DNA from: a virus
Lineage: Duplodnaviria; Caudoviricetes
DNA: 64,000 bases
Reading direction: 5' to 3' (one strand)
Virus record (IMG/VR): IMGVR_UViG_2627853630_000004
Span: 1 to 64,000 of that record
The position numbers and the translations under genes were made by a program. Below are positions 30,230 through 46,232 of this stretch, in pieces; position 1 is the first letter of the stretch; every line of letters begins with the position of its first letter. A model generated the notes under the pieces. That model saw only the letters and a program-made list of their open reading frames with translations, made no database searches and had not been told where the DNA came from.

Positions 30230-30577
30230 CTATATATCTAATTTTATTTCATGCCACCCGCTTGTATTCCAGCAATCAGAATCACCGCTCATGCAGCATG
30301 ATGCTACTGGCAACGACTCACCGCATTTCCCGCAGCATTGGCGGTTGAGCGACTGAATACGCTGGCGCACTCTGGCATCATCTTGCCGTATCAGCAGTTG
30401 GATATATTCATCCATGTCATAGGGTTCCTTACCCGGACGGCGTAGCACACAATTGCGGCGCAACATATCAAGTTCCTGAGCATCAAGATTCAGTTCCAGC
30501 TTGGTTACGCCAGCCTCCCGCTGGCGCTCACGTTGTGCTCTTTTACGTGCGGCGGCACGCTCTTTAGTGTCTGTCAT
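30230..30577 (-). CDS. hypothetical phage protein with C-terminal Cys cluster
   Basis: AAARKRAQRERQ, RRPGKEPY, CGKCGE...C...GDSDCW; ATGA overlap with the methyltransferase gene. Confidence 0.7.
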   Translation of the reverse strand: MTDTKERAAARKRAQRERQREAGVTKLELNLDAQELDMLRRNCVLRRPGKEPYDMDEYIQLLIRQDDARVRQRIQSLNRQCCGKCGESLPVASCCMSGDSDCWNTSGWHEIKLDI

Positions 30578-32742
30578 GCAGCCACCTGCCATGCGCAGTA
30601 TTCGGGCAAGTTTGCAGCAACTAATGCCCTTGCCTCTGTTGGGCAGACGGCATTGCCGCAACGTGCTACCTGATCTTTCTGTGATATTGGGTTTCCATCT
30701 GGATCGCGATCGATAATGTAATCAGGCGGGAATCCTTGAGCGTTATACAACTCGCGTGGCGATAGCATCCGCATGCAAATATCGATGATGACGTAATCAC
30801 CAACGCGCAGGTATTGACGCCGCGGGGCTGGGAATAGATGGGGGTCATCAGGTAAATCACTGTACGCCTCAAACAGCCGAGCGCAGCACCATGCGTTATA
30901 TCGTTGTTCGTCAGTTAATGGCTGTATTTCGCATTCAACTTCAGTCAGTCCGAATCGATCCCGCGTCGGAATTGTGTGCATCGGTTCAGTGATAGAAACG
31001 CCGTCACGCTCATTGCCGTAGTATTTTGTCAGATACGCCTGAACATGCCCGACATGTTGACCACCAGCGGTGATTGTTGGTACCGGCTCTGTTGATTGCT
31101 GCCCATCTTGGCAGGTTCCACGCAACTTGATGAGGTGTGATGAGCACAAGGAATGATGATCGACCTGAGTTACTGTATGCAGCGGTTCATCCATGCAACA
31201 ACCTGGCCCAGAGTAACCACCGCCGTAATGCTTAATCAGGTTGGCTGCGATAACAGCTTTATGTGATGACGTCGGTACCGTGTCGTATGGCGCGTTAATG
31301 TCACGCGGTTTTCCCGAATACTTGGGGCCACCAGCACCAACCAAAATTGCAGATAATAACTGGCTCTTTCCACCGCCCCCCGCAGTGACAGTTCCTAGCG
31401 GGGTATCTACGGGGTTAGCTGTGCTATTACCGAACTGACGTACAACCACAGGAGCGGCAATACTAAATCCGTGCGCCTGCGTTATCGTCTGTAATGGCTC
31501 CCGCAACGATTGACCTCGGAAACAGTCGTACGCACTGCGATTGCTGGTGTGATTACACTTAACGGCGAATGGCTCTATCAGCAGATGTTCCGCTTTGCTG
31601 GTGACGGTCGTAATGGGCTGATTTACGGAATACGACAGCCGGTCACCACCGAAACCAGTTTGCCCAATCCGCACGATATACGGCTCAGGGTTATTAATCA
31701 CAAACCGATCCAAACCCCGAACGATGCGTTTTAACGTATTGTCTGCCAGCGGCTTTTTCCGGCCTAAAATGGAACGTGTCGGTAGTGGCCAGTCAATGCA
31801 ATCAGCAGCTGTTCGCCACGGTTTTAAATTGCCCTCGGAAAATTCCTTCGATCGTGGATCACCATACTCCGCTGCTGGCCACTCAACTGGCCGCCCGTCG
31901 CATCGTGCAACAACATACAGGCGCTTTCTGATAGTCGGCGCGCCAGACATGTACGCCTTGCGCTCCCTGTGATCAACGTTGTAACCCAAGCCCTTAACCA
32001 ATTTTTTGGCATCAGGGCCGTTAATGTCGATATTCAGGAATTCGCAACACTCAGCCAGCGCCGGATGATTCGCGGGAATGCCAGTGCTCAACATGCCAAT
32101 AAACGCGTTAAATGTTTCACCTCTTTTGGCTGGGTCTGGGTAATAGTTACCCGCCTTTTCAACCAATGGCCCCCATGACCGGAACTCTTCAACGTTCTCC
32201 ATCATCAGCACGCGCGGACGGGTCGCCAGCGCCCAGCGCAGAATCACCCACGCCAAACCGCGTATCTCCTTCTTAACTGGCGTGCCGCCCTTCGCTTTTG
32301 AGAAGTGACGGCAGTCTGGCGAAAACCAGCCGAGCAATACAGGCAGACCACCCGTTGAGACAACCGGATCGACGCTGAAGATGTCTTCGGGGTAATGCAG
32401 CGTACGCGGGTGATTCATTGCGTGCATCGCCATCGCTACAGGATTGTGATTCATTGCGATGTGCGGCTCGAATCCTAACGCTTGTTTGATGCCCTCGCAG
32501 CTCCCGCCGCCACCAGCGAAACCGACAACCACCAGCCCGTTTTCAACATCAGGCCGAGCGATTTCTATCGCTTGGCGCCGCGCCCATTTGTGAGCCGCCT
32601 TTTGAATGTCTGCCGGGTTTTCTCTGCGTAAAAACATTCCGTGCATTTCTGAGAGAAGCGCCTCTCGGCGCTCCGGTGATAATTGATGAACGGGTATCAC
32701 GGATGAGGCGCATTGCTTAACTTCTGTAGGCCAATCACTCAT
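30574..32742 (-). CDS. DNA cytosine-5 methyltransferase (large, repeat-containing)
   Basis: Motif I FAGGGG, IV SPDC, VI ENVEEF, VIII RKR, IX RMLSPREL..AQGFP, X GNAV. Confidence 0.9.
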   Translation of the reverse strand: MSDWPTEVKQCASSVIPVHQLSPERREALLSEMHGMFLRRENPADIQKAAHKWARRQAIEIARPDVENGLVVVGFAGGGGSCEGIKQALGFEPHIAMNHNPVAMAMHAMNHPRTLHYPEDIFSVDPVVSTGGLPVLLGWFSPDCRHFSKAKGGTPVKKEIRGLAWVILRWALATRPRVLMMENVEEFRSWGPLVEKAGNYYPDPAKRGETFNAFIGMLSTGIPANHPALAECCEFLNIDINGPDAKKLVKGLGYNVDHRERKAYMSGAPTIRKRLYVVARCDGRPVEWPAAEYGDPRSKEFSEGNLKPWRTAADCIDWPLPTRSILGRKKPLADNTLKRIVRGLDRFVINNPEPYIVRIGQTGFGGDRLSYSVNQPITTVTSKAEHLLIEPFAVKCNHTSNRSAYDCFRGQSLREPLQTITQAHGFSIAAPVVVRQFGNSTANPVDTPLGTVTAGGGGKSQLLSAILVGAGGPKYSGKPRDINAPYDTVPTSSHKAVIAANLIKHYGGGYSGPGCCMDEPLHTVTQVDHHSLCSSHLIKLRGTCQDGQQSTEPVPTITAGGQHVGHVQAYLTKYYGNERDGVSITEPMHTIPTRDRFGLTEVECEIQPLTDEQRYNAWCCARLFEAYSDLPDDPHLFPAPRRQYLRVGDYVIIDICMRMLSPRELYNAQGFPPDYIIDRDPDGNPISQKDQVARCGNAVCPTEARALVAANLPEYCAWQVAA

Positions 32743-32821
32743 GATCCACCACCTGATTTTTATCAGAGCGAACGACAGTCGCGCCTAGCACGTTTAATTG
32801 AGTGGTTGATAGCGTGGTCAT
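32735..32821 (-). CDS. 28-aa leader-like ORF overlapping the methyltransferase start
   Basis: MTTLSTTQLNVLGATVVRSDKNQVVDHE*, preceded by GAGGCAAGACCAA. Confidence 0.45.
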   Translation of the reverse strand: MTTLSTTQLNVLGATVVRSDKNQVVDHE

Positions 32822-33072
32822 TTGGTCTTGCCTCGTTTTTGGTCGTGATATTCGCGCCAGTAATTTAAGCGCGCTCTAAAATGTTCCCGATACTGCTCCG
32901 CTACCGTGTCCAGCTCTTTTTCAACGTTCCGGCGCAGGGCTTTTCCTGCTATGAGTTGATTTATTAACTGGTTGGCGCGCAGGTCTAGCCATTCCATATC
33001 CCTGAATTCCTGCGGCCACTCACCACGGTTATGAGGCAGTCCGGGCGGCAGGTAATCTGATTGCCCGGACAT
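32818..33072 (-). CDS. hypothetical phage protein
   Basis: SDYLPPGLPHNR.EWP; lies in the pR operon. Confidence 0.65.
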   Translation of the reverse strand: MSGQSDYLPPGLPHNRGEWPQEFRDMEWLDLRANQLINQLIAGKALRRNVEKELDTVAEQYREHFRARLNYWREYHDQKRGKTK

Positions 33073-33075
33073 GGG

Positions 33076-33462
33076 TTATGCCTCTATGGGTTTTATCGTG
33101 TCGAGAAGAAGACGGGCGCGAGTCGGACCACCAGCGCGGGTGCCAGTGTCCTTGTAATAAAACTCGCCAGTGCCAACCACCCACGTAGTCGGGGTTTCAC
33201 GTAATTTAACCGTGCGTTCCCCGCCCACACGGACAACGGTTCCCGTGTGGGTTTTCTTTGTTGTCAGCCGTTTCTTACCTGACGTTTTCGGGAGTGGGGA
33301 AAATTTCGGCGCAACAACTTGCCGCGGCGCGGGAGCTGGCACGTACGGTGAGCGTGTGCGAGCGCGGGCGTTTGCGTTCATAGCCCAAAGAATTGGGCCG
33401 GTGTGGTCGCAGCCGTCATCGGTCATGAATGCGCGTGCGTAAATAACATCAGTTGTAATCAT
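33076..33462 (-). CDS. hypothetical phage protein
   Basis: VKLRETPTTWV...Y.KDTG.R...RLLLDTIKP; start abuts AGGCAAGACC. Confidence 0.68.
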   Translation of the reverse strand: MITTDVIYARAFMTDDGCDHTGPILWAMNANARARTRSPYVPAPAPRQVVAPKFSPLPKTSGKKRLTTKKTHTGTVVRVGGERTVKLRETPTTWVVGTGEFYYKDTGTRAGGPTRARLLLDTIKPIEA

Positions 33463-33508
33463 GGTCTTGCCTCTTTTTTTGGTCGGTTAAGCGCTGGTCA
33501 GGCGCGGT

Positions 33509-35682: not shown

Positions 35683-35910
35683 CTACACCCCCAGCGATTC
35701 CGCTAACTGACGGCACGCATCCTGATATTCGTCCGGCGATAGATTCATCTCACGCAATTCCGATTTGCGCTGTTCGTATTGCTCCCATACAGAGAGCGCT
35801 TCAGCCCTGCGGCCATCAAAGACAGGTTCAATATCACTGACGCTGGCTGGTTCGCCATTCAGCAAAAAGCCGTTCCTGTACGTGATTCGAATTCGGATCC
35901 TGGTGTGCAT
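35683..35910 (-). CDS. hypothetical phage protein
   Basis: Start reassigned to the ATG at 35910 behind GAGGCAAGACCA. Confidence 0.6.
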   Translation of the reverse strand: MHTRIRIRITYRNGFLLNGEPASVSDIEPVFDGRRAEALSVWEQYEQRKSELREMNLSPDEYQDACRQLAESLGV

Positions 35911-35932
35911 TGGTCTTGCCTCGCTATGCAAC

Positions 35933-36385
35933 TTATGCAACTAACTGCTGAGTAACTGGCAACAGCGCATACATCGCCTCTGTCGCTTTATTTATTCGTT
36001 GTGACATGTCACAGCATCCGAGCAGCACAGCATTCATCGCTGTGGAAAATTCACGGATGGCCACTGCCGTCAGGTAGTTAACAGATCGGTCATTCTGCAA
36101 ACGTGCCCGTCGTTCCCCCGGTAGAGCTGCAAGCATCACCGGAGCCAGCAACTGGACTTTTCTCTGTGCTGCGCGTGAGTCACTACGCAACCAGCGGAAA
36201 ATCTGCTGCCTGTTGTTATTTATCGATTTCCAGTCAGCAACGCCGCGCTGCTCGATTTCATGCAGCCGGATATGTGGATCGCCACCAGCCAGAAAAAATC
36301 GTTTGGTTATCTCGATCGCTACAGTTTCCTGTCCTGCATCAACCGCCCATGATTCGATCTCGTTCTTCAGCTCCTGAATATTCAT
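35933..36385 (-). CDS. CII-equivalent transcription activator, YdaT family
   Basis: W....GQETVAIEIT, NNRQQIFRWL; position after cro; TTGATT-N6-AATCA site just upstream. Confidence 0.78.
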   Translation of the reverse strand: MNIQELKNEIESWAVDAGQETVAIEITKRFFLAGGDPHIRLHEIEQRGVADWKSINNNRQQIFRWLRSDSRAAQRKVQLLAPVMLAALPGERRARLQNDRSVNYLTAVAIREFSTAMNAVLLGCCDMSQRINKATEAMYALLPVTQQLVA

Positions 36386-36440: not shown

Positions 36441-36635
36441 TCATTGTTTTCGGTACAGTTCCGGGTTGAATTTGAGTTCTCCGTTAGTTCTGATAGCGGC
36501 TTCTGTGGCTCGGCCTTTTGGGATTAGTTTTCCCTCTCGGGTTCGCCACTGATAAATAGCCTCAGTACTCACTTCAAAGAACTGAGCAACCTTCTCAACT
36601 GTTCCGAAATACTCTTCAATTTCGGTTGTAGTCAT
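36441..36635 (-). CDS. cro: Cro-like repressor
   Basis: 64-aa HTH (YFG...KVAQFFEVSTEAIYQW...IPKGRA), divergent from CI. Confidence 0.85.
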   Translation of the reverse strand: MTTTEIEEYFGTVEKVAQFFEVSTEAIYQWRTREGKLIPKGRATEAAIRTNGELKFNPELYRKQ

Positions 36636-36713: not shown

Positions 36714-36732
36714 TTATTTTTATTTGGTGCGC

Positions 36733-37359
36733 ATGATGGAATCTGTAGGGCAACGAATTAAGCGATTACGAAAAATGACAAAAACGTCTCAAAAGGATTT
36801 GGGGCGCTACTGTGGTGTCTCTGATGTTGCTGTTGGTTATTGGGAAAAAGACATTAACTCACCCAGTGGGGAGCCCGTTTCCAAGCTAGCCAAATTCTTT
36901 AACACCAGCGTTGACTACATTTTGTATGGCACGAAGTTTGAGGGTGAGTTGATCACTAGCGTTCGCAGGGTTCCAGTTCTTTCGTGGGTACAAGCTGGGT
37001 TATTCACTGAATCAACATCGGACCTTATTGATGATTCAACCGAGTGGATTGAAACCGCAGCACCGCTATCAGGGCGAGCATTTGCATTACAGGTTCGTGG
37101 GGATTCAATGACTAACCCTAACGGGCTTCCCTCAATACCTGAAGGGGCGATTGTATTTGTTGATCCAGAGGTGGTGGCAGAAAGCGGGCGGATCGTCGTA
37201 GCGCGACTCAATGGCACATCAGAAGCCACTATTAAAAAACTTGTTATAGATGGCCCAACAAAATTACTCGTTCCCCTAAACCCTCGCTACCCCACACTAA
37301 CGATCAATGGTAATTGCATCATCATTGGCGTAGTTAAAAGCGTTCAGTACACTCTTTAA
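36733..37359 (+). CDS. cI: CI repressor (HTH plus S24 peptidase)
   Basis: HTH N-terminus, VQAG cleavage site, VRGDSM catalytic Ser, TIKKL catalytic Lys. Confidence 0.93.
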   Translation: MMESVGQRIKRLRKMTKTSQKDLGRYCGVSDVAVGYWEKDINSPSGEPVSKLAKFFNTSVDYILYGTKFEGELITSVRRVPVLSWVQAGLFTESTSDLIDDSTEWIETAAPLSGRAFALQVRGDSMTNPNGLPSIPEGAIVFVDPEVVAESGRIVVARLNGTSEATIKKLVIDGPTKLLVPLNPRYPTLTINGNCIIIGVVKSVQYTL

Positions 37360-37390: not shown

Positions 37391-37441
37391 CTAAGTTTAA
37401 TTCGGTTTTTTGTTGACATAAAATCTAAGTTAAATTAGATT
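37391..37441 (+). promoter_or_regulatory. OL operators and pL
   Basis: CTAAGTTTAATTCG (37391) and CTAAGTTAAATTAG (37425); TTGACA(37413-37418)-N17-TAGATT(37436-37441). Confidence 0.82.
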
Positions 37442-37643
37442 AAATCCATCAACAGCGAACAGGCAGGACGCCCACGAAGTAGCCGCTACCGGCGTATGAA
37501 CAGGTAGATGATTCGCTAAGTAAGGCAAGACCAACCCACGCCGCAGACCACGCTCTATGAGTGGCGACGTGGGAAAACAACCAGGCGCAGTTGCGCTGTT
37601 TGGGTAACACGTTCTGACAGCGGGAAAGACCGCAAATTAATTC

Positions 37644-37719
37644 GGCCCCTTAGCTCAGCGGTTAGAGCTATCCCCTCATAAGGGATTGGTCACTGGTTCA
37701 AATCCAGTAGGGGTCACCA
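37644..37719 (+). tRNA. tRNA with CAT anticodon, Ile2 (lysidine)-type body
   Basis: 76-nt cloverleaf GGCCCCTTAGCTCAG...ATCCC-CTCATAA-GGGAT...GGTTCAAATCC...GGGGTCACCA; acceptor and D arms resemble ileX. Confidence 0.9.
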
Positions 37720-37722
37720 AAT

Positions 37723-37781
37723 TAGCGATCAGGTGATTAACGGGTTTCCCTGCTCGTTACCCGGTTCGACTCCGGGCGCTA
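37723..37781 (+). ncRNA. truncated tRNA-like element
   Basis: T-arm CCCGG-TTCGACT-CCGGG, closing TAGCG/CGCTA, inner stem TAACGGGT/GCTCGTTA; no CCA and no proper D arm. Confidence 0.45.
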
Positions 37782-37884
37782 TTCGAAATCACGTTGCCAT
37801 CGTGATAACTGCGAGAGGTGTGTAGTCATTGGGCGGTGTGGGTTTTTGATCTTTCCCCTATCCGCCAATTTTTTTCGCAGACGT

Positions 37885-38010
37885 AAAAAAGCCCGCCTTG
37901 CGGCAGGCTTAGTTACCTCGGATAACCGACCAAAGTATTTCCGAGAGGTTTGCGGCGCTTACCAGGCGCCGCAAGGCAAGACCAATACCAACTAACGCTG
38001 ATACTGATCA
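37885..38010 (-). ncRNA. predicted trans-acting antisense sRNA (~125 nt)
   Basis: TATAAT at 38022-38017, two hairpins, then GCCTGCC-GCAA-GGCGGGC-T6 terminator (37910-37885); carries the complements of the repeated RBS motifs. Confidence 0.6.
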
Positions 38011-38033
38011 GCCGTGATTATACGAGGAACGCT

Positions 38034-38327
38034 ATGAAAGCGCCAGATATCACAACCACGCTGTACCTCCATCTCAACGCATTTACATCTGAACCGTTAA
38101 TTTGCACATGTGACATGTCACATTTTGGTCATGCGTTAATTTCAACGTGTGAAGTCTCCGTGCCATTTCCTGAAATAACCCCCGAATACCTTGCAGAACG
38201 CAAGATGTCAGCGTTACGGGAACAGCAACAAAAAATTCTCTCTGACGCTCAAATCAAGGCGAATGAACTGGAAGACCAGGTTCAGAAATTGCTGTGCGTT
38301 GAGCGCCAGAACAGCACCATTAAGTGA
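38034..38327 (+). CDS. hypothetical phage protein
   Basis: GAGG RBS, CDMS motif, coiled-coil C-terminus. Confidence 0.65.
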   Translation: MKAPDITTTLYLHLNAFTSEPLICTCDMSHFGHALISTCEVSVPFPEITPEYLAERKMSALREQQQKILSDAQIKANELEDQVQKLLCVERQNSTIK

Positions 38328-38337
38328 GGGTGAAGAC

Positions 38338-38622
38338 GTGGGTGATGTAGGTGATTACTACAGGGACTTAAAGCCGTACTTGAAGGAGCAGCGTCGAAAA
38401 GCACGAGATGGTGCATATGGGCGTATCAAAGCGTTCTTTGTTAGAAATGGTGTTCAGTTGGAAGAAGGAAATAACACACTAATTTTCCGCACACCACAAG
38501 GCACTGTTTGCTACTACCCACCAAGCCAGAGGATGCAGCACAAGCAATTATGGAAAGAATGCAGCCCGACCAGCTGCATGAACTATGTGAAAAAACTAAG
38601 AACTGAGAGGCAAGACCAATGA
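38338..38622 (+). CDS. hypothetical phage protein
   Basis: GTG start with GAGG RBS (MGDVGDYYRDLK); ATGA overlap with the next gene. Confidence 0.6.
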   Translation: MGDVGDYYRDLKPYLKEQRRKARDGAYGRIKAFFVRNGVQLEEGNNTLIFRTPQGTVCYYPPSQRMQHKQLWKECSPTSCMNYVKKLRTERQDQ

Positions 38623-40802
38623 CAACAGCAACATTTACCGCTGCTTTCTTTCCAAAGAAATCAGCTCAAAAAAATGGCGCGATACCGCTAGCAACAGCGA
38701 TCGAAGCAAAAAGCAAAAAACTGGCAGAAATGGCAGCAGTTATGCTGCTGGAAGAAACATTCCCTGGTGCCAGTGATAACTTCTTTAAACCAACCATCAC
38801 CGAGGATTCGATCGGTTCACCCCGTCCAGCCGTTGGAACGTTCGATGAGACATTCCTACAGGAAAATGAGCTGGTAGAGGGCGTCTGGCGGCGCATCGAG
38901 GCACCGACTCAGCCTAACGATCTCGTCGATTTCTCCACCCTCTCTTTGCGTGAAAAAATCGCGGCGTTTGCGTTGTATGCGCAATCTGAAATCACCGAGC
39001 ATGAATTCTCTATGGTGTGTGATTATCTCGATCTGCCGGATTTCGATGGCGATGGGGATACTAACGCAGACACGGACAAACTGATCCGCATACTCAGCGG
39101 TATTGAATTGTTGGAACAGGCTACTGACGAATTGCTACTCAGCGTAGTAAATGCCGTTAACGCTCGGTTCCCATCTATCGCAGATGTTGCGGATCGTGAA
39201 ATTCTGGCCTTTGTTGATACGTTAACATGCGCGCCCGGCGAAAATGACACGCAAGCGACAAAGCCGCTGATCGCTGGATTGGATCGTGAACGCCAGTACA
39301 CGCATACGCATCGAACATTAAACCGAGAAGTCGCCCTGTTCCTGGCTAACGACAACATCACAGATCCGTGGGAAGTAACAGAAGAACAGAAGGTTGCGGG
39401 TGATCAGGTGATGAAAAGCGGTGGTGACACGTATTCACGATGGTCAACCGAGTTGAGTATGGTTGAGGGCGCGTTAAAAATCCCCCGCCCCATAGTTTTC
39501 ATCTTGATAAATGAGGCCAAGAAACGCCCTGAATTATTGCTAGATGCAAACGCGCGTCAGCGGTTCGTTGTTGATTTTCTGGCTGAGCACACACCATCAG
39601 AAATCAAAGTTGAAAGCATGGGCAGCGGACGATTCTCTATTGATGGCCTGATGGGTGAAACCGCATCAAATCAGGGAGAAAAAACGGAAGTGGTCAGCAC
39701 GCCTGAGGCTGAAACAAAACAGACTGAAGCCGTTAACCCGCCAGCAGAAACCATTACGCAGCAGGCCAGCACCGAAGCTGGTGAGCAGATCATTAGCGAC
39801 GGCACAGTGCAGCAGGCAAAAGAAGCGCTCGATCAGCTGGGGTACGGCGTTTACGCGACAGAAACGGACGCACCAGCACCAGCACCAGCACCAGCAGACG
39901 ATTTTCAGCAAAGAGCTGAAGCCATTGAAGCCGAGATCGCCAAAAAACCAGACGCGGCACGCGGCAATCTATCTATTTGGCAGGGTGTCCAGAGAACCAA
40001 CCCTGCGCACACAAGGCGGAAAGAAACATGGAAGTGGGTTAACGGAAAACAAGAGCTATTGCGCGCAGTCACTAGCGTCAACCCTACGTACCAAATAATG
40101 AGAGCCACAGAAGTATTTGGACCGTTCGGGTTAGGTTGGGGGGTGGAAGTTACAGAGGAGCGATTCGATCCCGGATTACCACTAATGGAGCCAGTCTTTG
40201 ATAGCTCAGGGAGAGAGATAAACCGAAAACCCATGCGTGATGGTGATGGATCACTTGTCAGGGCGCTAAACCACACAATGCAAATACGATTATGGTACGT
40301 GCTGGATGGTGTGCGCGGAGAGTTTCCCGCTTTCGGGCATACGAAATATCTCTATGCAAAGAATAGTGGTGGCATGGTGTGTGACGATGAAGTCGGTAAA
40401 AAAAGCCTGACAGATGCCATCACAAAAGGGCTGTCAGCGCTTGGCTTTAGCGCCGATATCTACATGGGCATGTTTGATGATGACGAATATAAGAATAAAA
40501 ACGAAGCGGAATTCGGCATCAAAAACGCAAGTGACAAAGCCGAAGACGTGGTGCGTTTTCGCTCTGAGCTGGATGAGAAATTCACACGGAACGCGGCAAC
40601 GATGGAGACGACAGTCAGCGTCAATGAACTCAATAAGGTGTTTGGAGTTCTCGTACGTGAGATCGAAACACATCGTAAAGATGCAGAGGCAAAAGGTGAT
40701 ACAGAATACGCAAAATATCTATCTAGTCGTCTGCGTCGCCTTACTGAAATAAAAAGCGAGCGTGAAAAAGCACTCAAGGCCACTGAAGGGGAAAAAGCAT
40801 GA
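38619..40802 (+). CDS. recombination protein: RecE-like N-terminus fused to a Rad52/Sak-like annealing domain
   Basis: N-terminal KKSA.K.G...IEAKSKK; C-terminal TEVFGP.G.GWG, KKSLTDA..K.LS.LGFSADIYMG.FDD. Confidence 0.65.
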   Translation: MTTATFTAAFFPKKSAQKNGAIPLATAIEAKSKKLAEMAAVMLLEETFPGASDNFFKPTITEDSIGSPRPAVGTFDETFLQENELVEGVWRRIEAPTQPNDLVDFSTLSLREKIAAFALYAQSEITEHEFSMVCDYLDLPDFDGDGDTNADTDKLIRILSGIELLEQATDELLLSVVNAVNARFPSIADVADREILAFVDTLTCAPGENDTQATKPLIAGLDRERQYTHTHRTLNREVALFLANDNITDPWEVTEEQKVAGDQVMKSGGDTYSRWSTELSMVEGALKIPRPIVFILINEAKKRPELLLDANARQRFVVDFLAEHTPSEIKVESMGSGRFSIDGLMGETASNQGEKTEVVSTPEAETKQTEAVNPPAETITQQASTEAGEQIISDGTVQQAKEALDQLGYGVYATETDAPAPAPAPADDFQQRAEAIEAEIAKKPDAARGNLSIWQGVQRTNPAHTRRKETWKWVNGKQELLRAVTSVNPTYQIMRATEVFGPFGLGWGVEVTEERFDPGLPLMEPVFDSSGREINRKPMRDGDGSLVRALNHTMQIRLWYVLDGVRGEFPAFGHTKYLYAKNSGGMVCDDEVGKKSLTDAITKGLSALGFSADIYMGMFDDDEYKNKNEAEFGIKNASDKAEDVVRFRSELDEKFTRNAATMETTVSVNELNKVFGVLVREIETHRKDAEAKGDTEYAKYLSSRLRRLTEIKSEREKALKATEGEKA
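39870..39896 (+). repeat. (GCACCA)4.5 microsatellite encoding an Ala-Pro linker
   Basis: GCACCAGCACCAGCACCAGCACCAGCA, in frame. Confidence 0.85.
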
Positions 40803-41380: not shown

Positions 41381-41415
41381 CGGCTGACCACCGTATAGCA
41401 AGCGAGGCAAGACCA

Positions 41416-41592
41416 ATGCTAAAAATGAGCGCGCAGCGCGGGGACGTTATTCATATTGTTTTTGCTGATGGCCGGAATGGAATGATCGCAGTTCAATCAC
41501 GCAGTGTGCTGGCGATTCATTTTCCGCCAGATGTGAAAATAACGCGTGAACGTCGCCAGCAGGAAAAACTGATTAACGATAATCAGAAATAA
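41416..41592 (+). CDS. CsrA/RsmA-like small protein (58 aa, absent from the ORF track)
   Basis: MLKMSAQRGDVIHI...VLAIHFPPDVKITRE aligns without gaps to CsrA at M1, L2, G9, I14, P37, V40, R44, E45. Confidence 0.65.
   Translation: MLKMSAQRGDVIHIVFADGRNGMIAVQSRSVLAIHFPPDVKITRERRQQEKLINDNQK
41569..41586. promoter_or_regulatory. second YdaT/CII-type site (pI-like)
   Basis: CTGATT-AACGAT-AATCAG upstream of the orf-xis-int genes. Confidence 0.6.
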
Positions 41593-41639: not shown

Positions 41640-41846
41640 ATGCAAGTATGGAAACCGGGCAAGTGCCTGTTATCTGAGTTCGATATTAAAATCGGTCGGC
41701 TGTCTGCAAGCGTAAGGAAGACCACTCTAACGCAACAGGATATAGACCAGTCTTGTGCAGCAGCCGACGCAATCATTGATAAATTAAGGCAAGACCATGA
41801 CCGACCTGTTAACCGACGACGAGCTAATAGAACTGACAGGCTATAA
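41640..41846 (+). CDS. small hypothetical phage protein
   Basis: GGGGG RBS; FDIKIGRLSASVR. Confidence 0.55.
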   Translation: MQVWKPGKCLLSEFDIKIGRLSASVRKTTLTQQDIDQSCAAADAIIDKLRQDHDRPVNRRRANRTDRL

Positions 41847-42012
41847 GTATGCGTCGAAGCAACGCGCCGCTCTAACCCGATCCGGCATTTCGTTTATCAC
41901 CCGTAGGGATGGGCGACCCAGCGTCACATGGGCGGCAATTAATGCCAGCCTATCCACTGTGAAAGCTGAGCAATTTAAAGACGTTGAACAGCCTAATTTT
42001 GATGCGATTTAA
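41797..42012 (+). CDS. xis: excisionase-like protein (DUF4224-like)
   Basis: LLT.DELIELTGY...SKQ...L...GI.F..R.DGRP.V, PNFDAI; directly before int. Confidence 0.82.
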   Translation: MTDLLTDDELIELTGYKYASKQRAALTRSGISFITRRDGRPSVTWAAINASLSTVKAEQFKDVEQPNFDAI

Positions 42013-42014
42013 TC

Positions 42015-43040
42015 ATGGCTCGTAAACGTAAAGATCCCCGCGATAACGCATTACCGCCACGCGTATATCGCGGGAAAAGTAAATATGAATTCCACCCGAT
42101 TGGTGGCGGCTCTATTTCACTATGCCCTCTCGATTCCCCCATTCCACTAATCTGGGAGAAATACGACGCGGCAAATAATTATCGCGAGGAAAAATTTACT
42201 CTGGAACGAATGGCCGGGCGATTTATGCAATCACCAGACTTCCTCGATCTCGCGAGTGAAACACAAAAGGACTACCGGAAATACTCTGCGAAAATAATTC
42301 CAGTTTTTGGGGGGATGTCGCCGGATTCGATTAAACCTGAACACATCAGGAAATACATGGATAAACGGGGCGTGAAAAGCAAGACGCAGGCGAACAGAGA
42401 AAAGGCGTTTCTTTCGCGAGTATTTCGGTGGGGATACGAGCGGGGGCTATGTAAAGGCAACCCATGCAAGGGCGTTAAACAGTTCAAAGAGGTGGCGCGA
42501 GATCGTTACGTGACTGATGACGAGTATAACGCCCTGTACTCCGTCGCAGCTCCATTTGTCCAGGTGGCTATGGAAATAGCCTATCTGTGTCTCTCACGGC
42601 AGGGGGATGTTCTCTCGCTGACTGAGGGGCAAATATTAGATCAGGGGATTTTTATCGCTCAGGGAAAAACGGGCGCAAAACAAATCAAGGCATGGACGGA
42701 CAGGCTGAGAGCCGCTGTAACAAATGCACGTAACTTGCCAATAAAACCGGGCATCAGCAGTATGTACATAATCCATCAACCGACCGGAGGGCGCTACACT
42801 CGCGACGGATTCAACAGCCGCTGGCAGCAAGCCAAAGAAGATGCGGCCACGGCGTTCCCACACTTGAGCTTTGATTTCACTTTTCACGATCTCAAGGCTA
42901 AAGGGGTTTCAGATCTCGATGGGACGTTAGCAGAAAAACAGGCAATATCGGGACACATGACAATCAGCCAGACAGCACGATACGACCGAAAGATACCGAT
43001 CGTTCCTGTTGTGGGTGGTCAGAATAAAAATTCAAAATAA
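42015..43040 (+). CDS. int: tyrosine integrase of prophage 1
   Basis: R (SRQGD), K (QGKTG), HDLK, GH, Y (TARYDR); adjacent to att. Confidence 0.93.
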   Translation: MARKRKDPRDNALPPRVYRGKSKYEFHPIGGGSISLCPLDSPIPLIWEKYDAANNYREEKFTLERMAGRFMQSPDFLDLASETQKDYRKYSAKIIPVFGGMSPDSIKPEHIRKYMDKRGVKSKTQANREKAFLSRVFRWGYERGLCKGNPCKGVKQFKEVARDRYVTDDEYNALYSVAAPFVQVAMEIAYLCLSRQGDVLSLTEGQILDQGIFIAQGKTGAKQIKAWTDRLRAAVTNARNLPIKPGISSMYIIHQPTGGRYTRDGFNSRWQQAKEDAATAFPHLSFDFTFHDLKAKGVSDLDGTLAEKQAISGHMTISQTARYDRKIPIVPVVGGQNKNSK

Positions 43041-43359: not shown

Positions 43360-44364
43360 TTAATCTGTAGTTAATGAATCGAACGGGTTTAAGGTAACAG
43401 CCGCATCCAGATGATCCGGTGCAAAATGGGCGTAACGCATCGTCATGGTGATCGTGCTGTGACCTAAAATCTGTTGCAGTACCAGAATATTTCCGCCGTT
43501 CATCATGAAGTGTGATGCGAATGAGTGACGTAAAACGTGGGTAAGTTGCCCGCTAGGTAGCTCAATGCCAGCCCGTTTAATGGCGTACTTGAAAGACTCA
43601 TAAGCTGGGGTGAAAAGCGAACCACGCTTCTTAGGCAAAAGGCTGCGCATCTTCTCAGAAATTGGCACCGTTCTGTTTTTATTCCCTTTCGTTCTGGTGA
43701 ACGTGACGCGGCTTGGCAGGATTTGAGATTGCTTTAAATCCTGTGCTTCACTCCACCGCGCTCCTGTCGCCAGGCATAGACGAACGATGATACCCAAATC
43801 CTTATTGTCTGATTCGTCACATGCAGTCAGCAGGCGCTTTATTTCATCGGGATAAAGAAATGCCAGTTCCTGATCCCCCTCTTTGAACTGGCGTATGCCG
43901 TCCAATGGATTTTCTTTATCCCACTCCCCCATCCTTTTCAACTCGGAAAAGACCGCGCGTAGGTAAGAGTATTCACGGTTGACCGTCGCTTCTTTCAGAA
44001 CGGCTTTACCCTTTGGATTCCACTCACCTTTAAGGCGTCGTTCGCGATACACGGCAAACATATTTTTATCAACGTCGATAGCAAACGGATCACCCAAGCG
44101 TTCACAGATAGCGAGTAATTTCGTGTAGCGGGAATCACCGGACGATAACGTTTTGCCGTGCATGTCATACCAACGCTGAACCAAATCTTTCAGAGTGATA
44201 TTACTGGTTGTGGTATCAATGCCTTTTTTATCGGCCATAAGGCGGCGCTCATAGGAAAGCGCCTCACCACGGGTGGCAAACTGTTTGCGGATGCGTTTAC
44301 CATCACGGCCATAAGGGAAGCACTGGCAAAGCCATTTGCCGGATGGAAGTTTACTTACAGCCAT
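43360..44364 (-). CDS. int: P2/186-type tyrosine integrase
   Basis: TGARWSEA, TKGNK.R, HVLRHSFASHFM, LGH...MTMRYAH. Confidence 0.95.
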   Translation of the reverse strand: MAVSKLPSGKWLCQCFPYGRDGKRIRKQFATRGEALSYERRLMADKKGIDTTTSNITLKDLVQRWYDMHGKTLSSGDSRYTKLLAICERLGDPFAIDVDKNMFAVYRERRLKGEWNPKGKAVLKEATVNREYSYLRAVFSELKRMGEWDKENPLDGIRQFKEGDQELAFLYPDEIKRLLTACDESDNKDLGIIVRLCLATGARWSEAQDLKQSQILPSRVTFTRTKGNKNRTVPISEKMRSLLPKKRGSLFTPAYESFKYAIKRAGIELPSGQLTHVLRHSFASHFMMNGGNILVLQQILGHSTITMTMRYAHFAPDHLDAAVTLNPFDSLTTD

Positions 44365-44366
44365 AA

Positions 44367-45560
44367 TTAAATGCTTTCTTCGTTAGAAAATAAATTAATG
44401 CGTTCGGCTTTTTTTCCTTCTTCTTTTTTCCAAAAAAAACCTGTTTGCAATAATGCAACCAGATCATCTTGAGTCATAGTCACCGTATCCCACAAAGCAA
44501 CTTTATTTTTCTCATCATTGGGCTTGTATATTTCAAGAGTAACCACACCGGCATCATATGACTGGCTTTCAATTAATATTGGCAAATCAACTAGTGGTTT
44601 AGGGGTTAGTTGTTTATATGGGATGAAATCCCCTGTGAACTTTCCATCAATAGATGCTAGTGTTTCGTATCCAGCATAACAGTCATATTTAACTTTCAAC
44701 AAAACGGCATGTGGTAATTTTATGAATGAGGCCCAATCGCTATAGCCTAATCTATCACTGTAGAATGAATCGCCACGATGGAAAGCAAAAGAATTCCCTT
44801 GAGTCCAAGTATCATACTGAACACCTTCAAAGGTGACTTTAGTTAACTTAATGTCAAGAGCATCCCTAAAAGCGGTGCCAACTGCAAATTTCCATCCGGA
44901 AGCGTAGCCATCAACAAATACAGCCAGGAGCGCGCTGCTTCTCCGTGGTTCCCTTACTGTTCTAAAGGTGGTTACCACTTCATCATGAACGTTTTTTATT
45001 TTTTCTAAAATATCCCCTGAATCGATTTCATAATCATCGGTAGGATCTAAAGGTATTTCACCCGTTTCAATGAAATTGAGAAATTGCTGTTTAGTGAGGA
45101 TAAAGCATCCTTTTTCATTAGCTTCTTTTATTTTTTTCCAACCAGCATTGGCACCACAGCAAAGAAAATAAAGCTTAGCTGTAACGCCAGCCCTCACGAC
45201 AAAATCATTTTCCTTAGCCAATTTAGTTAATTCATCTTTTTCGCTTTTATCAAACCCAGTAAAGCAGATTTCCAAGCCAAGTTTTTTTGTTTTTACTTTT
45301 CTAGAGATGGGATTATTTTTGTATTCATCCTTATCAAAAGATTTATCAAATGAACACAATTCCTCTTCTGAATTAAAAAACCTGACTATTCTGTCAGTGC
45401 TATAAGTTCTATAGCCTTTTTTATTTATTGAATACCCTTGTAAAAAGCCATCTTTATGCACCAAGTTAACTATGTGATTAGGGGATTCTTCATTTTTAGC
45501 ATTAACATAAATAAAAAAGGCTTCTTTATTATCACTCACTTTCCATTCATCAAATAGCAT
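44367..45560 (-). CDS. WYL-like plus BRCT domain protein (AT-rich moron)
   Basis: FIYVNAKNE...FLQGY......RTYSTDRI (WYL-like); ICFTGF..SEKDEL..LA......VT....FLCCG.NAGWKKI..A..KG..IL (BRCT). Confidence 0.75.
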   Translation of the reverse strand: MLFDEWKVSDNKEAFFIYVNAKNEESPNHIVNLVHKDGFLQGYSINKKGYRTYSTDRIVRFFNSEEELCSFDKSFDKDEYKNNPISRKVKTKKLGLEICFTGFDKSEKDELTKLAKENDFVVRAGVTAKLYFLCCGANAGWKKIKEANEKGCFILTKQQFLNFIETGEIPLDPTDDYEIDSGDILEKIKNVHDEVVTTFRTVREPRRSSALLAVFVDGYASGWKFAVGTAFRDALDIKLTKVTFEGVQYDTWTQGNSFAFHRGDSFYSDRLGYSDWASFIKLPHAVLLKVKYDCYAGYETLASIDGKFTGDFIPYKQLTPKPLVDLPILIESQSYDAGVVTLEIYKPNDEKNKVALWDTVTMTQDDLVALLQTGFFWKKEEGKKAERINLFSNEESI

Positions 45561-45607
45561 AGTTCAATCTCCATGATTACTAAATTGCTGTGTGAATTAT
45601 AAAAATA

Positions 45608-46210
45608 TCAATGCGCCAACAGCATCCCCAGCACGATCCCTGCCGCAAGCACTGCGCCAAAAATCCGTGGTTCTGCTTTTAAAGTATTTACCGCATCTTG
45701 CCACGTCTGTACTTTTGGGGGGGGTGTGTTGGTGGTAGTTCTACCCTGCCGCTCATCCAACCACCCCATAGCCTGCTGAAGCTGGGGGCGGGCTAAATCA
45801 TTTAACCGACTGGTTCCAAAATTGATGTGGCAGAACCGTGTAAGCTGTTCGCGTAATTCGTTTTGCTCTGTGCTTCTTAATAACTGAGACACTAGTTTTT
45901 TATTAGCATCCCTTTCCCTGCTACGCTCATGTAGCGCATTCAGGAAACTTAGCGCTGTGGAATACTGGCTGATGGTGATTTCTTCAATACCGTTAACACC
46001 AAGCTCCGCATGTAAGCGACGCCAAACAAAACGCACATCTTCACGCCCTGCTTCCGCAATATCTTTCACCAACTGGTTTAATTGGGAACGCTGGGCGCTA
46101 ACCAATGGGCGCAAATCTTCTTTAGTTTGTGGGGCGGCAATATTGATATTTTTTTCGTAATAATCACGTCCTGCGACCCGATTACTATCCCCTTGAGCCT
46201 CTACGGTCAT
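45608..46210 (-). CDS. membrane-anchored protein with two ORF6C-like helical repeats
   Basis: VWRRLHAELGV..IEEI....YSTAL.FL and FCHINFG..RL.DL...QL.QA..WL; C-terminal TM IFGAVLAAGIVLGMLLA. Confidence 0.65.
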   Translation of the reverse strand: MTVEAQGDSNRVAGRDYYEKNINIAAPQTKEDLRPLVSAQRSQLNQLVKDIAEAGREDVRFVWRRLHAELGVNGIEEITISQYSTALSFLNALHERSRERDANKKLVSQLLRSTEQNELREQLTRFCHINFGTSRLNDLARPQLQQAMGWLDERQGRTTTNTPPPKVQTWQDAVNTLKAEPRIFGAVLAAGIVLGMLLAH

Positions 46211-46232
46211 CCATTACATCCTTGATGCTTCG

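What the first reader, a model, noticed from the sequence alone, without database searches (positions are those of the whole stretch)
37885..38046. Candidate master sRNA: minus-strand transcript complementary to both target elements
Seen: TATAAT (38022-38017; weak -35); then a single-stranded 5' tail containing UUGGUAUUGGUCUUGCCU; hairpin UUGCGGCGC-CUGGUAA-GCGCCGCAA; hairpin CUCGGA-(…UUUGGUCGGUUA)-UCCGAG; and terminator GCCUGCC-GCAA-GGCGGGC-U6, whose U-G pair and U-tract work only on the minus strand. The tail pairs with AGGCAAGACCA(AUG): GCGAGGCAAGACCAATG at 35924-35908 and 41402-41418 differs from the locus only by A>G, i.e. G-U wobbles. The second loop pairs with the CYGACCA loops in the correct antiparallel order. 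The motif copy here has no start codon, as expected for the template rather than a target. Inference: a multi-target antisense repressor active in the lysogen and neutralised by the overlapping pL transcript on induction; analogous in logic to P1 C4 and P4 CI RNAs, but I see no sequence resemblance to them.
Basis: partly seen in the sequence, partly recalled or inferred. Interest (0 to 1): 0.92.

Follow-up and report, generated by a model that had tools for sequence, protein, structure and literature searches.

The report
Prophage small RNA matching tagged early-gene starts
A ZF40-like prophage encodes a conserved, highly structured small RNA whose exposed bases are the exact complement of an 11-base tag placed just before the start codons of six early genes, so one RNA could silence a whole block of phage genes.

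Summary
Window 37885-38010 (minus strand) is a promoter-to-terminator gene for a ~125-nt RNA. It is 86% identical in Pectobacterium phage ZF40.

The fold has four hairpins. In 50 sequences 98.7% of cells pair and 18 of 34 pairs change on both sides. There are 220 G-U cells, so the fold exists only on the minus strand.

The RNA carries UGGUCUUGCCU, the exact complement of AGGCAAGACCA. That tag occurs 8 times in the window (about 1 expected) and 422 more times in 147 related loci. It is always sense to the local operon, and 386 of the 422 copies sit at an ATG. In five host genomes the copies cluster around the RNA gene.

One correction: the "single-stranded tail" is the 3' arm of a conserved 5' hairpin. 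One addition: the RNA is a distant relative of Salmonella IsrB (Rfam RF01386), an expressed Gifsy RNA of unknown function.

Multi-target translational repression is inferred, not shown. The scan's first readers had noted the tag and the loops on this same genome, not on other DNA.

The parts
38017..38045 (-). Promoter of the small RNA: -10 TATAAT (38022-38017), weak -35 TGGCGC (38045-38040). It abuts the Shine-Dalgarno and ATG (38034) of the divergent ORF1.
   Evidence: A TANNNT hexamer lies 2-12 nt before the 5' hairpin in 58 of 65 unique relatives. The other 7 printed rows also show TAAAAT or TATAAT, but my estimate of the hairpin start was displaced there.
37980..38009 (-). HP0: a 5' hairpin of 13 bp with 4 G-U pairs. 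Its 3' arm holds UGGUC, the first half of the seed; its 5' arm (GAUCA...) resembles the target word GACCA.
   Evidence: Helix 1: 98.6% of cells paired, 3 of 9 pairs changed on both sides, U-G at one pair in 47 of 50 sequences.
37974..37984 (-). Seed UGGUCUUGCCU, the exact complement of the tag AGGCAAGACCA. With its flanks it gives up to 17 bp (2 G-U) with the starts at 35908-35924 and 41402-41418, covering SD and AUG.
   Evidence: No true family member with another base at seed position 5, 9 or 10 was found in IMG/VR.
37950..37974 (-). HP1: a 9-bp hairpin with loop CUGGUAA here. In most relatives the loop is UUGGUC, although the search pattern did not demand it.
   Evidence: Helix 2: 9 of 10 pairs changed on both sides.
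37916..37946 (-). HP2: a lower stem of 7 bp in the window's own fold (5 model pairs), an inner 3-bp stem, and the apical loop UUGGUC within CUUUGGUCGGUUA. It is complementary to CYGACCA/CCGACCAAA loops upstream of tagged starts, with a 12-nt exact complement TAACCGACCAAA at 33478-33489 (-). This is the part shared with Rfam isrB.
   Evidence: (helices 3 and 4).
37885..37910 (-). Rho-independent terminator (9-bp stem, GCAA loop, U6), preceded by the conserved GGUAA(A/C) linker.
   Evidence: helix 5.
37413..37441 (+). pL: TTGACA-17-TAGATT, flanked and overlapped by repeats of the operator-like word also found between cI and cro. Its transcript runs antisense through the whole small-RNA gene to ORF1.
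   Evidence: The contig of RNA run X6 begins at 37446 (weak hint).
37523..37533 (+). Non-coding copy of the tag in the pL leader, followed by a hairpin with AGACCA in its loop. Candidate extra pairing or decoy site.
   Evidence: A pL-sense tag copy lies within 1200 nt beyond the terminator in 28 of 125 loci long enough to show it, mostly without an ATG.
38608..38621 (+). Tagged start of the 727-aa exonuclease (38619-40802). A GCAGC-CCGACCA-GCUGC hairpin lies about 40 nt upstream.
41402..41418 (+). Tagged start of the 58-aa ORF (41416-41592, phrog_2482). An ACGG-CUGACCA-CCGU hairpin lies upstream.
41787..41799 (+). Tagged start of the 71-aa DUF4224 protein (41797-42012), just before the integrase. 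Its ZF40 counterpart is annotated as excisionase.
35908..35924 (-). Tagged start of the 75-aa ORF (35683-35910, phrog_2465), upstream of the replication genes.
33460..33505 (-). Tagged start of the 128-aa ORF (33076-33462). It is preceded by a GCGC-CUGACCA-GCGC hairpin and by TAACCGACCAAA.
32819..32833 (-). Tagged start of a 28-aa leader ORF (32735-32821) whose end overlaps the start of the 722-aa DNA methyltransferase (30574-32742).
38034..38327 (+). ORF1 (97 aa, phrog_2479), the first pL gene. Its start stands 42-53 nt from the seed in the relatives listed.
   Evidence: (132 of 150 loci by tblastn).

Best explanation
The locus is the gene of a ~125-nt phage small RNA transcribed leftward (minus strand) from its own promoter. 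It sits between pL and the first early-left gene of a ZF40-like prophage.

Its most likely action is antisense repression of translation. The seed UGGUCUUGCCU pairs with the tag AGGCAAGACCA, which forms the Shine-Dalgarno-to-AUG interval of six early genes: the exonuclease, a 58-aa protein, the excisionase-like DUF4224 protein, a 75-aa and a 128-aa protein, and the leader ORF of the DNA methyltransferase. The apical UUGGUC(GG) loops can make kissing contacts with GACCA loops 10-30 nt upstream of many of these starts.

Because pL fires through the gene, the RNA is also fully complementary to the pL leader. When pL is repressed the RNA is free to act. When pL is on, the leader can mop it up or be cut with it.

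The seed is half-hidden in a 5' hairpin, so either 5' processing or strand invasion is probably needed.

Shown here: the gene, its strand, its fold, its conservation, the complementarity, and the placement and co-occurrence of the tags. Inferred: pairing in the cell, repression, its timing, and the sponge role of the leader.
For: 1. A real minus-strand RNA.
- 50 of 50 distinct relatives match the covariance model. The window scores 58.1 bits, E 1.7e-12.
- 98.7% of 1663 cells pair. 18 of 34 pairs and 240 cells change on both sides. The covariation score is 0.457 against 0.195 in shuffles (0 of 500 reach it) and at most 0.11 when the partners are slid.
- By my count from that table there are 220 G-U cells and 22 non-pairs. 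The plus strand would therefore carry about 220 C-A mismatches.
- The -10 box and the terminator are conserved.
- Compensatory changes are already visible against ZF40.

2. The tag.
- 8 exact copies in the window and 7 exact copies in ZF40.
- 415 further copies in 1.37 Mb of 146 loci, against 0.65 expected.
- Of 422 copies in 147 loci, none is antisense to the local operon and 386 are followed by ATG within 0-3 nt.
- In 262 unique contexts the ATG lies at offset -1 to +2 in 234.

3. The second element.
- GACCA occurs 0.645 times per 80 nt upstream of tags, against 0.10 in random 80-mers, and peaks at -30 to -11.
- The complementary word TGGTC occurs 0 times in those leaders.
- 108 of 169 upstream GACCA words are unpaired in the minimum-energy fold.

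4. Linkage.
- In five host genomes 8 of 9, 6 of 8, 2 of 4, 6 of 6 and 7 of 8 copies lie within about 12 kb of the RNA gene.
- 5 of 5 viral contigs picked only for carrying several tags hold the RNA at 145-157 bits.

5. Seed constraint.
- 34 stretches matched the patterns with a changed seed position 5, 9 or 10. None of them is a family member.

6. Variation that fits RNA pairing.
- Of 44 unique one-mismatch tags at starts, 28 are A>G or C>U, which keep a G-U pair (8 of the 33 possible changes would do so).
- Pairing beyond the seed is longer with the cognate RNA than with other subfamilies' RNAs: 2.35 and 2.58 bp against 1.82 and 2.08.

7. A relative is expressed.
- Salmonella IsrB was seen by Northern blot and primer extension (passages of PMC2330248).
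- It scores 99.3 bits in Gifsy-2, antisense to the leader of the exonuclease gene.

8. RNA-library contigs of a relative.
- One starts at 37446, 5 nt after the pL -10.
- Another covers the region up to 37987 and stops there, followed by letters that I recognise from memory as an Illumina adapter. It does not cover ORF1.
Against: - No experiment on this RNA or on any tagged gene exists. No read-level, strand-specific data were available. Contigs cannot show strand, ends or level.
- In the full-length fold only 5 nt of the seed are free.
- The seed never varies, so true seed-target covariation cannot be tested. The two variation tests use related, non-independent sequences, and their effects are modest.
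- Complementarity to the tags follows automatically from the fact that the plus strand of the gene carries one more tag copy. In Proteus-type relatives that copy even starts a 4-codon ORF. A purely cis-acting antisense RNA would therefore look the same.
- 115 of 262 tagged starts have no upstream GACCA. The window's own HP1 loop has lost UUGGUC.
- The Salmonella relative IsrB has neither the seed nor a multi-copy tag.
- The covariation counts come from an alignment fitted to the model.
Confidence: 0.6

Rival explanations
1. Cis-only antisense RNA, like IsrB. The RNA acts only on the overlapping pL leader and ORF1 transcript, by RNase III cutting, transcription interference or attenuation. The 11-base tags at the other genes are read by something else: a phage or host RNA-binding protein, or the ribosome.
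For: - The RNA is fully complementary to the pL leader.
- Gifsy-2 IsrB is a plain cis-antisense RNA with no tag system.
- Most of the seed is buried in HP0.
- The plus-strand tag copy in relatives is itself a start site (AGGCAAGACCA-ATG plus 3 codons). The match could therefore be a by-product.
Against: - An abundant RNA with 11-17 nt of perfect complement to SD-AUG regions would be hard to keep from pairing.
- The seed is invariant while the stems around it change freely.
- Tag variants favour G-U-compatible changes.
- TGGTC is absent from 262 tagged leaders.
- No candidate protein reader was identified. The 58-aa ORF shows no CsrA likeness.
Confidence: 0.2
2. The RNA does pair with the tags, but the outcome is not repression in the lysogen. 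It could instead shut off early-gene translation late in lytic growth, as T4 RegA protein does (recalled). Or it could guide processing or stabilisation of the early transcripts.
For: - The promoter has a good -10 but a poor -35, so it may need an activator.
- The targets are accessory early genes rather than cro, cII or the replication genes.
- Nothing here fixes the time of expression.
Against: - In RNA run X4 a contig of a relative covers the RNA gene and stops at 37987 without covering ORF1. That looks like a state with pL off (weak).
- Pairing across SD and AUG gives no obvious route to activation. The leaders contain no TGGTC that an RNA could displace.
Confidence: 0.12
3. The functional strand is the plus strand. 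The locus would be a protein-bound leader or a CsrB-like decoy presenting GACCA loops to a phage CsrA-like protein (the 58-aa ORF). This was proposed in other first-reader notes.
For: - On the plus strand the two hairpins present GACCA-type loops plus a tag, the same layout as at the target genes.
- The 58-aa ORF begins ML.. and has an FPxxVxI stretch.
Against: - 220 G-U cells would become mismatches on the plus strand.
- The U-tract terminator and the -10 box work only on the minus strand.
- No CsrA match for the 58-aa protein in Pfam at E up to 1, in a PDB profile search at E up to 10, or by Foldseek with a pLDDT-84 model.
- tblastn found that ORF in only 22 of 150 loci, although many loci are too short to hold it.
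Confidence: 0.04

Closest known systems
IsrB small RNA of Salmonella prophages Gifsy-1/Gifsy-2 (Rfam RF01386)
   Same: - It shares the hairpin with the CUUUGGUCGG loop followed by a GC-rich terminator.
- It is encoded antisense inside the early-left (recombination) operon of a temperate phage.
- Relatives of the window RNA score 28.4-36.3 bits on the isrB model.
- IsrB is experimentally expressed, with two 5' ends (PMC2330248, passages). It is listed as ProQ-associated with a 'likely role in lysogeny maintenance' (PMC5391140, one passage).
   Different: - The window copy scores only 17.5 bits, against a threshold of 35.
- IsrB lacks HP0, the seed UGGUCUUGCCU and the UUGGUC loop of HP1.
- Gifsy-2 has no multi-copy tag.
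- No function of IsrB was found in the papers searched.
c4 antisense RNA of phages P1 and P7
   Same: A phage immunity RNA whose exposed loop sequences pair with two short sites in a target mRNA, one of them covering a ribosome binding site. (Recalled; Citron and Schuster 1990 was seen only as a reference and in a review passage.)
   Different: - No Rfam C4 hit at E up to 10.
- c4 is cut out of the same transcript as its single target operon (recalled). Here the RNA has its own promoter on the opposite strand and 6 or more dispersed targets in both early operons.
CI RNA of satellite phage P4 (seqB pairing with seqA and seqC)
   Same: A small immunity RNA encoded within the early leader. It pairs with repeated sites upstream and downstream of itself in the same leader (recalled). 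Compare the non-coding tag at 37523 plus the full antisense overlap.
   Different: P4 CI causes premature transcription termination and is processed from the sense transcript (recalled). Here most sites are translation starts and the RNA is antisense. Not tested.
Start-associated sequences (SAS) of cluster K mycobacteriophages
   Same: An exact short motif stamped immediately upstream of many start codons, sometimes with a second element upstream, and of unknown function (recalled; no paper read).
   Different: A different sequence and host. No complementary small RNA has been described for them, to my knowledge.
T4 RegA translational repressor
   Same: One trans-acting factor that represses translation of many early phage mRNAs at their initiation regions. 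(Recalled; PMC3014915 was seen only in a search listing.)
   Different: RegA is a protein with loose sequence specificity.

Membership tests
Rfam isrB (RF01386) | Covariance-model score at or above the gathering score of 35 bits | tested here: not met
   The window scores 17.5 bits, E 2.2. Relatives: 9 of 12 sources hit isrB at 28.4-36.3 bits, and 3 of them reach 35. Gifsy-2 itself scores 99.3 bits.
Rfam isrB (RF01386) | Hairpin presenting CUUUGGUCGG, followed directly by an intrinsic terminator | tested here: met
   Alignments. HP2 spans 37916-37946 and the terminator 37885-37910.
Rfam isrB (RF01386) | Encoded antisense within the early-left operon of a temperate enterobacterial phage, near the exonuclease gene | tested here: met
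   In Gifsy-2, isrB lies at 5993-6080 (+) between STM1010 and the exonuclease VIII gene, both on the minus strand. In the window the RNA is antisense between pL and ORF1, with the exonuclease gene 600 nt further on.
Rfam isrB (RF01386) | Association with Hfq or ProQ | not testable with these tools
   Known only from the Rfam title and one passage of PMC5391140.
C4 antisense RNA family (P1/P7 c4, Rfam C4) | Match to the family model | tested here: not met
   No C4 or isrK hit among the 6 matches at E up to 10 in 37400-38500.
C4 antisense RNA family (P1/P7 c4, Rfam C4) | Processed from the same transcript as its target (recalled feature) | tested here: not met
   It has its own -10 box and terminator on the strand opposite to pL.
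C4 antisense RNA family (P1/P7 c4, Rfam C4) | Two exposed sequences complementary to two sites of a target, one of them at the ribosome binding site | tested here: met
   The seed matches the tag, and the HP2 loop matches the upstream CYGACCA/CCGACCAAA. This shows a likeness of working, not membership.
CsrB-type protein decoy with a phage CsrA homologue | The partner protein belongs to the CsrA family | tested here: not met
   Pfam gives no family at E up to 1. The PDB profile search gives no CsrA at E up to 10. Foldseek gives no CsrA in the rows printed (about 40) and nothing at E up to 0.001. The model is a monomer, whereas CsrA is an interlocked dimer (recalled), so the fold test is weak.
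CsrB-type protein decoy with a phage CsrA homologue | The structured RNA is the strand that presents the protein's binding motif (here GACCA, plus strand) | tested here: not met
   G-U asymmetry, the terminator and the promoter all place the RNA on the minus strand.
Type I toxin-antitoxin pair (divergent small RNA against the 5' UTR of a toxin gene) | The neighbouring ORF is a small toxic, usually hydrophobic, peptide | not tested
   ORF1 is 97-115 aa with a coiled-coil-like C-terminal half and no evident membrane helix (read by eye). Toxicity is unknown.

The most novel reading that the evidence does not exclude
The RNA and its 11-base tag form a family-wide 'address system'. The seed and the tag are letter-for-letter the same in every family member found, in prophages of about ten enterobacterial genera. 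A resident prophage's RNA could therefore silence the early genes of any incoming phage of the family, whatever its CI immunity type. That would be RNA-based cross-immunity.

Two further elements would complete the switch. The 5' hairpin HP0 would act as a built-in pseudo-target that keeps the seed locked until the RNA is processed; a possible natural 5' end lies at about 37987. The pL leader, with its extra tag copy, would act as the sponge that flips the switch on induction. This reading would also give orphan IsrB-type RNAs a function.
Probability: 0.25. Interest if true: 0.88.

Novelty: new variant of a known kind. Interest (0 to 1): 0.78.

Why it matters
Antisense immunity RNAs are known from a handful of phages (P1/P7 c4, P4 CI, P22 sar, lambda OOP). 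Each acts on one transcript.

Here a single conserved RNA is matched by an invariant tag on four to eight early genes in both divergent operons. This holds in every family member found, in prophages of Proteus, Providencia, Morganella, Xenorhabdus, Photorhabdus, Yersinia, Serratia, Pectobacterium and others.

If the pairing is functional, four things follow.
- It is a phage-internal post-transcriptional regulon with a built-in second layer of lysogeny control.
- It explains why an RBS spacer can be frozen across phages whose proteins are only 30-40% identical.
- It gives a testable function to the IsrB family.
- It offers a compact, portable tag-and-RNA pair for synthetic control of translation.

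The full-text searches found no description of the tag or of this RNA.

Tried and rejected
- Seed-target covariation. I looked for family members with a changed seed so that compensating tags could be sought. IMG/VR patterns with a non-canonical base at seed position 5, 9 or 10 gave 12, 15 and 7 stretches. None matched model R1. A fourth pattern (22 stretches, none a member) was mis-designed: it demanded that positions 6-8 all differ, so it says little. Covariation of the seed therefore cannot be tested.
- Order-level model search. In 151 genomes only the centre genome had a strong hit. The 13 other genomes had hits of 24-32 bits, which on reading were terminators, apart from two partial relatives. 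L210 is a short isrB-like form. L214 has UUGCUCUUGUCUC in place of the seed. The complement of the L214 variant occurs only at its own locus, where it starts an ORF, and once elsewhere in that genome. This is uninformative.
- Ranking of all 587 ATG starts of the window by RNAduplex energy. Long imperfect duplexes swamped the score: the median was -50 and the tagged starts scored -66 to -72. Rejected as a test. No accessibility-based tool was at hand.
- Idea that the tag pairs with 16S rRNA and the RNA mimics it. In the 16S rRNA of a host (G001) the longest shared word is 7 nt, and 1245 of 5000 shuffled seeds do as well. Rejected.
- CsrA likeness of the 58-aa ORF. See the rivals; not supported.
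- RNAalifold on the raw MAFFT alignment. It gave a poor consensus because the stems were misaligned. It also suggested a UUGCC/GGUAA closing helix, which cannot be tested because both sides are invariant.
- Public runs. No run held half or more of the sampled words. RNA runs held 4-5%. Runs X3 and X1 covered only the tRNA and leader part, which says nothing about the RNA.
- E. coli and sequenced phages. There were partial matches in 2 of 5426 E. coli genomes and, among phage records, in ZF40 only.
- Literature. 'IsrB' of E. coli (AzuCR) is a different RNA (PMC12612679, one passage). The ZF40 comparative paper (PMC3391216, passages and Table 3) mentions neither the tag nor an RNA. One search was too loosely phrased to be useful. 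Supplementary tables (the IsrB mapping, the lists of ProQ-bound RNAs) were closed and may bear on expression and partners.
Full report
**Setting.** The window holds a prophage that is 86% identical to Pectobacterium phage ZF40 across 37722-38200. The layout is lambda-like.
- Early-right genes lie on the minus strand: a cro-like gene (36441-36635), a CII/YdaT-like gene (35933-36385), an O-like gene and DnaB.
- The cI repressor (36724-37359) lies on the plus strand, and the early-left genes follow it on the same strand.
- The early-left genes are ORF1 (38034-38327, phrog_2479), a 727-aa exonuclease, a Gam-like protein, a 58-aa ORF, a DUF4224 excisionase-like protein and the integrase (42015-43040).

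A strong plus-strand promoter, TTGACA-17-TAGATT (37413-37441), follows the cI terminator. Repeats of the operator-like word CTAAGTT(T/A)(G/A)ATTAG overlap it, and the same word fills the cI-cro spacer. I take this promoter as pL. Its leader runs for about 590 nt before ORF1. In order, the leader passes a non-coding tag copy (37523), a tRNA-Met gene (37644-37719) and the whole candidate RNA gene in antisense.

**The observation.**
- The scan calls the minus-strand terminator at 37910-37889.
- The 133-nt stretch folds 6.9 standard deviations better than shuffles.
- Rfam at gathering scores reports only the tRNA in the window.
- At E up to 10 there is no C4 or isrK hit, but there is a weak isrB hit (17.5 bits, threshold 35) that shares the loop CUUUGGUCGGU and the terminator.

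**It is a conserved gene on the minus strand.**
About half of the genome hits are chance matches in unrelated phyla.
- The real genome hits are in Proteus, Providencia, Morganella, Xenorhabdus, Photorhabdus, Yersinia, Serratia, Rouxiella, Pectobacterium and Symbiopectobacterium, plus one record titled Martelella alba.
- After filtering for the linker and terminator, 147 loci with 57 distinct sequences remained.
- Folded one at a time, every one of the 74 distinct extended sequences that I could see gives the same four hairpins (the output was cut in the middle).
- The hairpins, in order: HP0, whose 3' arm is ..UUGGUC; a free UUGCC(U); HP1 with the hexaloop UUGGUC; HP2 with an inner stem and again UUGGUC; GGUAAA; and the terminator.
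- The HP1 loop was not part of the search pattern, yet it is UUGGUC in most sequences. The window has CUUGGUAA-like CUGGUAA instead.

I built a covariance model from nine gap-free sequences. It matched 50 of 50 distinct sources.
- On that model-fitted alignment 98.7% of cells pair. 18 of 34 pairs and 240 cells change on both sides. The covariation score is 0.457, against 0.195 in shuffles and at most 0.11 for slid partners.
- From the same table I count 220 G-U cells against 22 non-pairs. One U-G pair of HP0 occurs in 47 of 50 sequences, and one of HP2 in 50 of 50. On the plus strand these would be C-A mismatches, so the fold belongs to the minus strand.
- A TANNNT hexamer (TAAAAT, TATACT, TATAAT, TATTGT and others) stands 2-12 nt, mostly 6 nt, before HP0 in 58 of 65 distinct upstream regions. 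The other seven printed rows also show such a hexamer.

**The tag.** AGGCAAGACCA occurs eight times in the window.
- Six copies span the SD-to-AUG interval of early genes in both operons.
- One copy is non-coding in the pL leader.
- One copy is the complement of the RNA's seed.
- ZF40 has seven exact copies in the same places.

Across 147 related loci there are 422 further copies (415 in 146 loci against 0.65 expected).
- 212 are pL-sense on the pL side, and 208 of these sit at an ATG.
- 175 are pR-sense beyond cI, and 174 of these sit at an ATG.
- 35 are pL-sense in the leader between pL and the RNA gene, and 31 of these have no ATG.
- None is antisense to its operon.

In five complete or draft host genomes nearly all copies lie within about 12 kb of the RNA gene. 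Counts of the reversed control word are 0-5 per strand. The tag is therefore a phage-internal signal, not a host one. Conversely, five viral contigs chosen only because they carry two or three tag-plus-ATG copies all contain the RNA at 145-157 bits.

**A second element.**
- In 262 distinct tagged leaders GACCA is six times enriched in the 80 nt upstream (0.645 against 0.10). It is concentrated 11-30 nt before the tag and is unpaired in the minimum-energy fold in 108 of 169 cases.
- Its complement TGGTC never occurs in these leaders.
- The commonest forms (C-U/C-GACCA in a small hairpin loop) are the complement of UGGUCGG in HP2, with U or C opposite G.
- The window has a 12-nt exact complement of the HP2 loop next to the tag of the 128-aa ORF.
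- However, 115 of the 262 leaders have no upstream GACCA.

**How it probably works.**
- The seed with its flanks can form up to 17 bp (two of them G-U) across SD and AUG of the starts at 35908-35924 and 41402-41418, and at least 11 bp at the others. That should block ribosome binding.
- The loops could supply fast kissing contacts.
- In the full-length RNA UGGUC is paired in HP0 with GAUCA, a wobble copy of the target word. Access therefore needs strand invasion or removal of the 5' arm.

One hint for removal of the 5' arm comes from RNA run X4.
- A 1781-nt contig of a 90-95% identical relative covers the cI side, the leader, the tRNA and the RNA gene, and ends at 37987. That is 2-3 nt before UUGGUCUUGCC on the minus strand.
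- The contig end is followed by 24 letters that I recognise from memory as an Illumina adapter. It does not cover ORF1.
- In run X6, a contig from another sample of the same study starts at 37446, five bases after the pL -10, and runs through ORF1.

Contigs cannot show strand or ends, so this is only a weak hint. It would mean one state with pL off and the small RNA present, and another with pL on.

The pL transcript contains the perfect complement of the RNA and, in 28 of 125 loci, one more tag copy. It could therefore titrate the RNA on induction. That step is inference.

**Tests that bear on RNA pairing versus a protein reader.**
- Among 44 distinct one-mismatch tags at start codons, 28 are A>G or C>U changes that keep a G-U pair. 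8 of 33 would be expected if all changes were equally likely, and more with a transition bias. At internal positions the count is 14 of 20.
- Pairing beyond the 11-mer is about half a base pair longer on each side with the cognate RNA than with RNAs of other subfamilies.
- Both samples consist of related sequences, so these are supports, not proofs.
- The seed itself never varies. This fits a reader locked by many targets, but it rules out a covariation test.
- The proposed protein reader, the 58-aa ORF, is an all-beta protein (five strands, pLDDT 84). It has no CsrA likeness in Pfam, in a PDB profile search or in Foldseek. tblastn saw it in 22 of 150 loci, but many loci are too short to hold it.

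**Comparison with what is known.**
- The nearest named family is Rfam isrB. Nine of twelve related loci hit it at 28-36 bits, and three reach the threshold. Gifsy-2 isrB scores 99 bits.
- Gifsy-2 isrB lies antisense in the leader of the exonuclease VIII gene. Its loop faces an ACCGACCAAAGCG hairpin of that leader.
- IsrB is an expressed 88/94-nt RNA with two 5' ends (PMC2330248, passages). It is cited as ProQ-associated with a likely role in lysogeny (PMC5391140, one passage). I found no functional study of it.
- Gifsy-2 has neither the seed nor a repeated tag. The window RNA is therefore an elaborated relative, not a plain member.
- In logic it resembles P1/P7 c4 and P4 CI (recalled), but it fails the tests for membership.
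- I found no paper that holds the tag in a phage context. 50 papers hold the letters, and the 15 listed are all unrelated. Neither the ZF40 papers nor a 2025 review of phage small RNAs mention such an RNA.

**Verdict.**
- That this is a real, widespread, strand-specific prophage small RNA: I put this at about 0.9.
- That it represses translation of the tagged early genes by pairing: about 0.6.
- That it does so in the lysogen and is neutralised by the pL leader: about 0.35-0.4.

It is a new variant of a known kind. It is unusual for its invariant multi-gene tag, its locked seed and its breadth across genera.

Noticed in passing
window 38034-38327 (+); relatives in alignment A9: Most homologues of ORF1 (phrog_2479, first pL gene) end in an acidic tail D/E-x-(I/L)-P-(Y/F). 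This looks like the C-terminal tip of bacterial SSB (recalled). The window and ZF40 copies lack it. It may be an SSB-tail mimic in the recombination operon.
   Followed up: no
L001 (ZF40) gp08, locus 6121-6609: ZF40 gp08 is annotated as 162 aa, but it matches ORF1 (97 aa) at 88% identity. The annotated start lies inside the small-RNA gene, so the N-terminus is probably over-extended.
   Followed up: partly
window 37644-37719 (+): A tRNA-Met (CAT) gene sits inside the pL leader, between the non-coding tag copy and the small-RNA gene. ZF40 has a protein gene (gp09) there instead. A relative seen in RNA runs has 394 extra letters right after the tRNA.
   Followed up: no
e.g. L002 5520-5534 (-), Proteus-type relatives: In Proteus/Providencia-type phages the plus-strand complement of the seed is followed by ATG and three codons (a 4-codon mini-ORF) about 25 nt before ORF1. 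In the window the ATG is ATA.
   Followed up: partly
window 32735-32821 (-): A tagged 28-aa ORF overlaps by 8 nt the start of the 722-aa DNA methyltransferase. It looks like a leader ORF for translational coupling.
   Followed up: no
window 41416-41592 (+): The 58-aa ORF (phrog_2482) is a conserved five-strand all-beta protein (pLDDT 84). Its profile weakly matches repeats of a biofilm-associated surface protein (7dm0, E 2.8e-7). Its own start usually carries the tag or a near variant.
   Followed up: partly
L098 11136-11258 and 12171-12317 (+): One viral contig holds two copies of the RNA 1 kb apart. The second (48 bits) has the same seed and HP1 loop but a 36-nt insertion in HP2.
   Followed up: no
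L229 (G044) around 9984-10075 (-): This is a partial relative whose seed reads UUGCUCUUGUCUC. Its complement AGACAAGAGCA-ATG starts an ORF on the other strand, and AGACAAGACCA-ATG follows 70 nt further on. This may show how the RNA arose, as the antisense of a tagged start.
   Followed up: partly
window 43360-46646: A second tyrosine integrase (43360-44364, -) lies just beyond the ZF40-like integrase. It is followed by a 397-aa ORF, a membrane-anchored 200-aa ORF and an HTH repressor-like ORF. This appears to be a separate integrated element.
   Followed up: no
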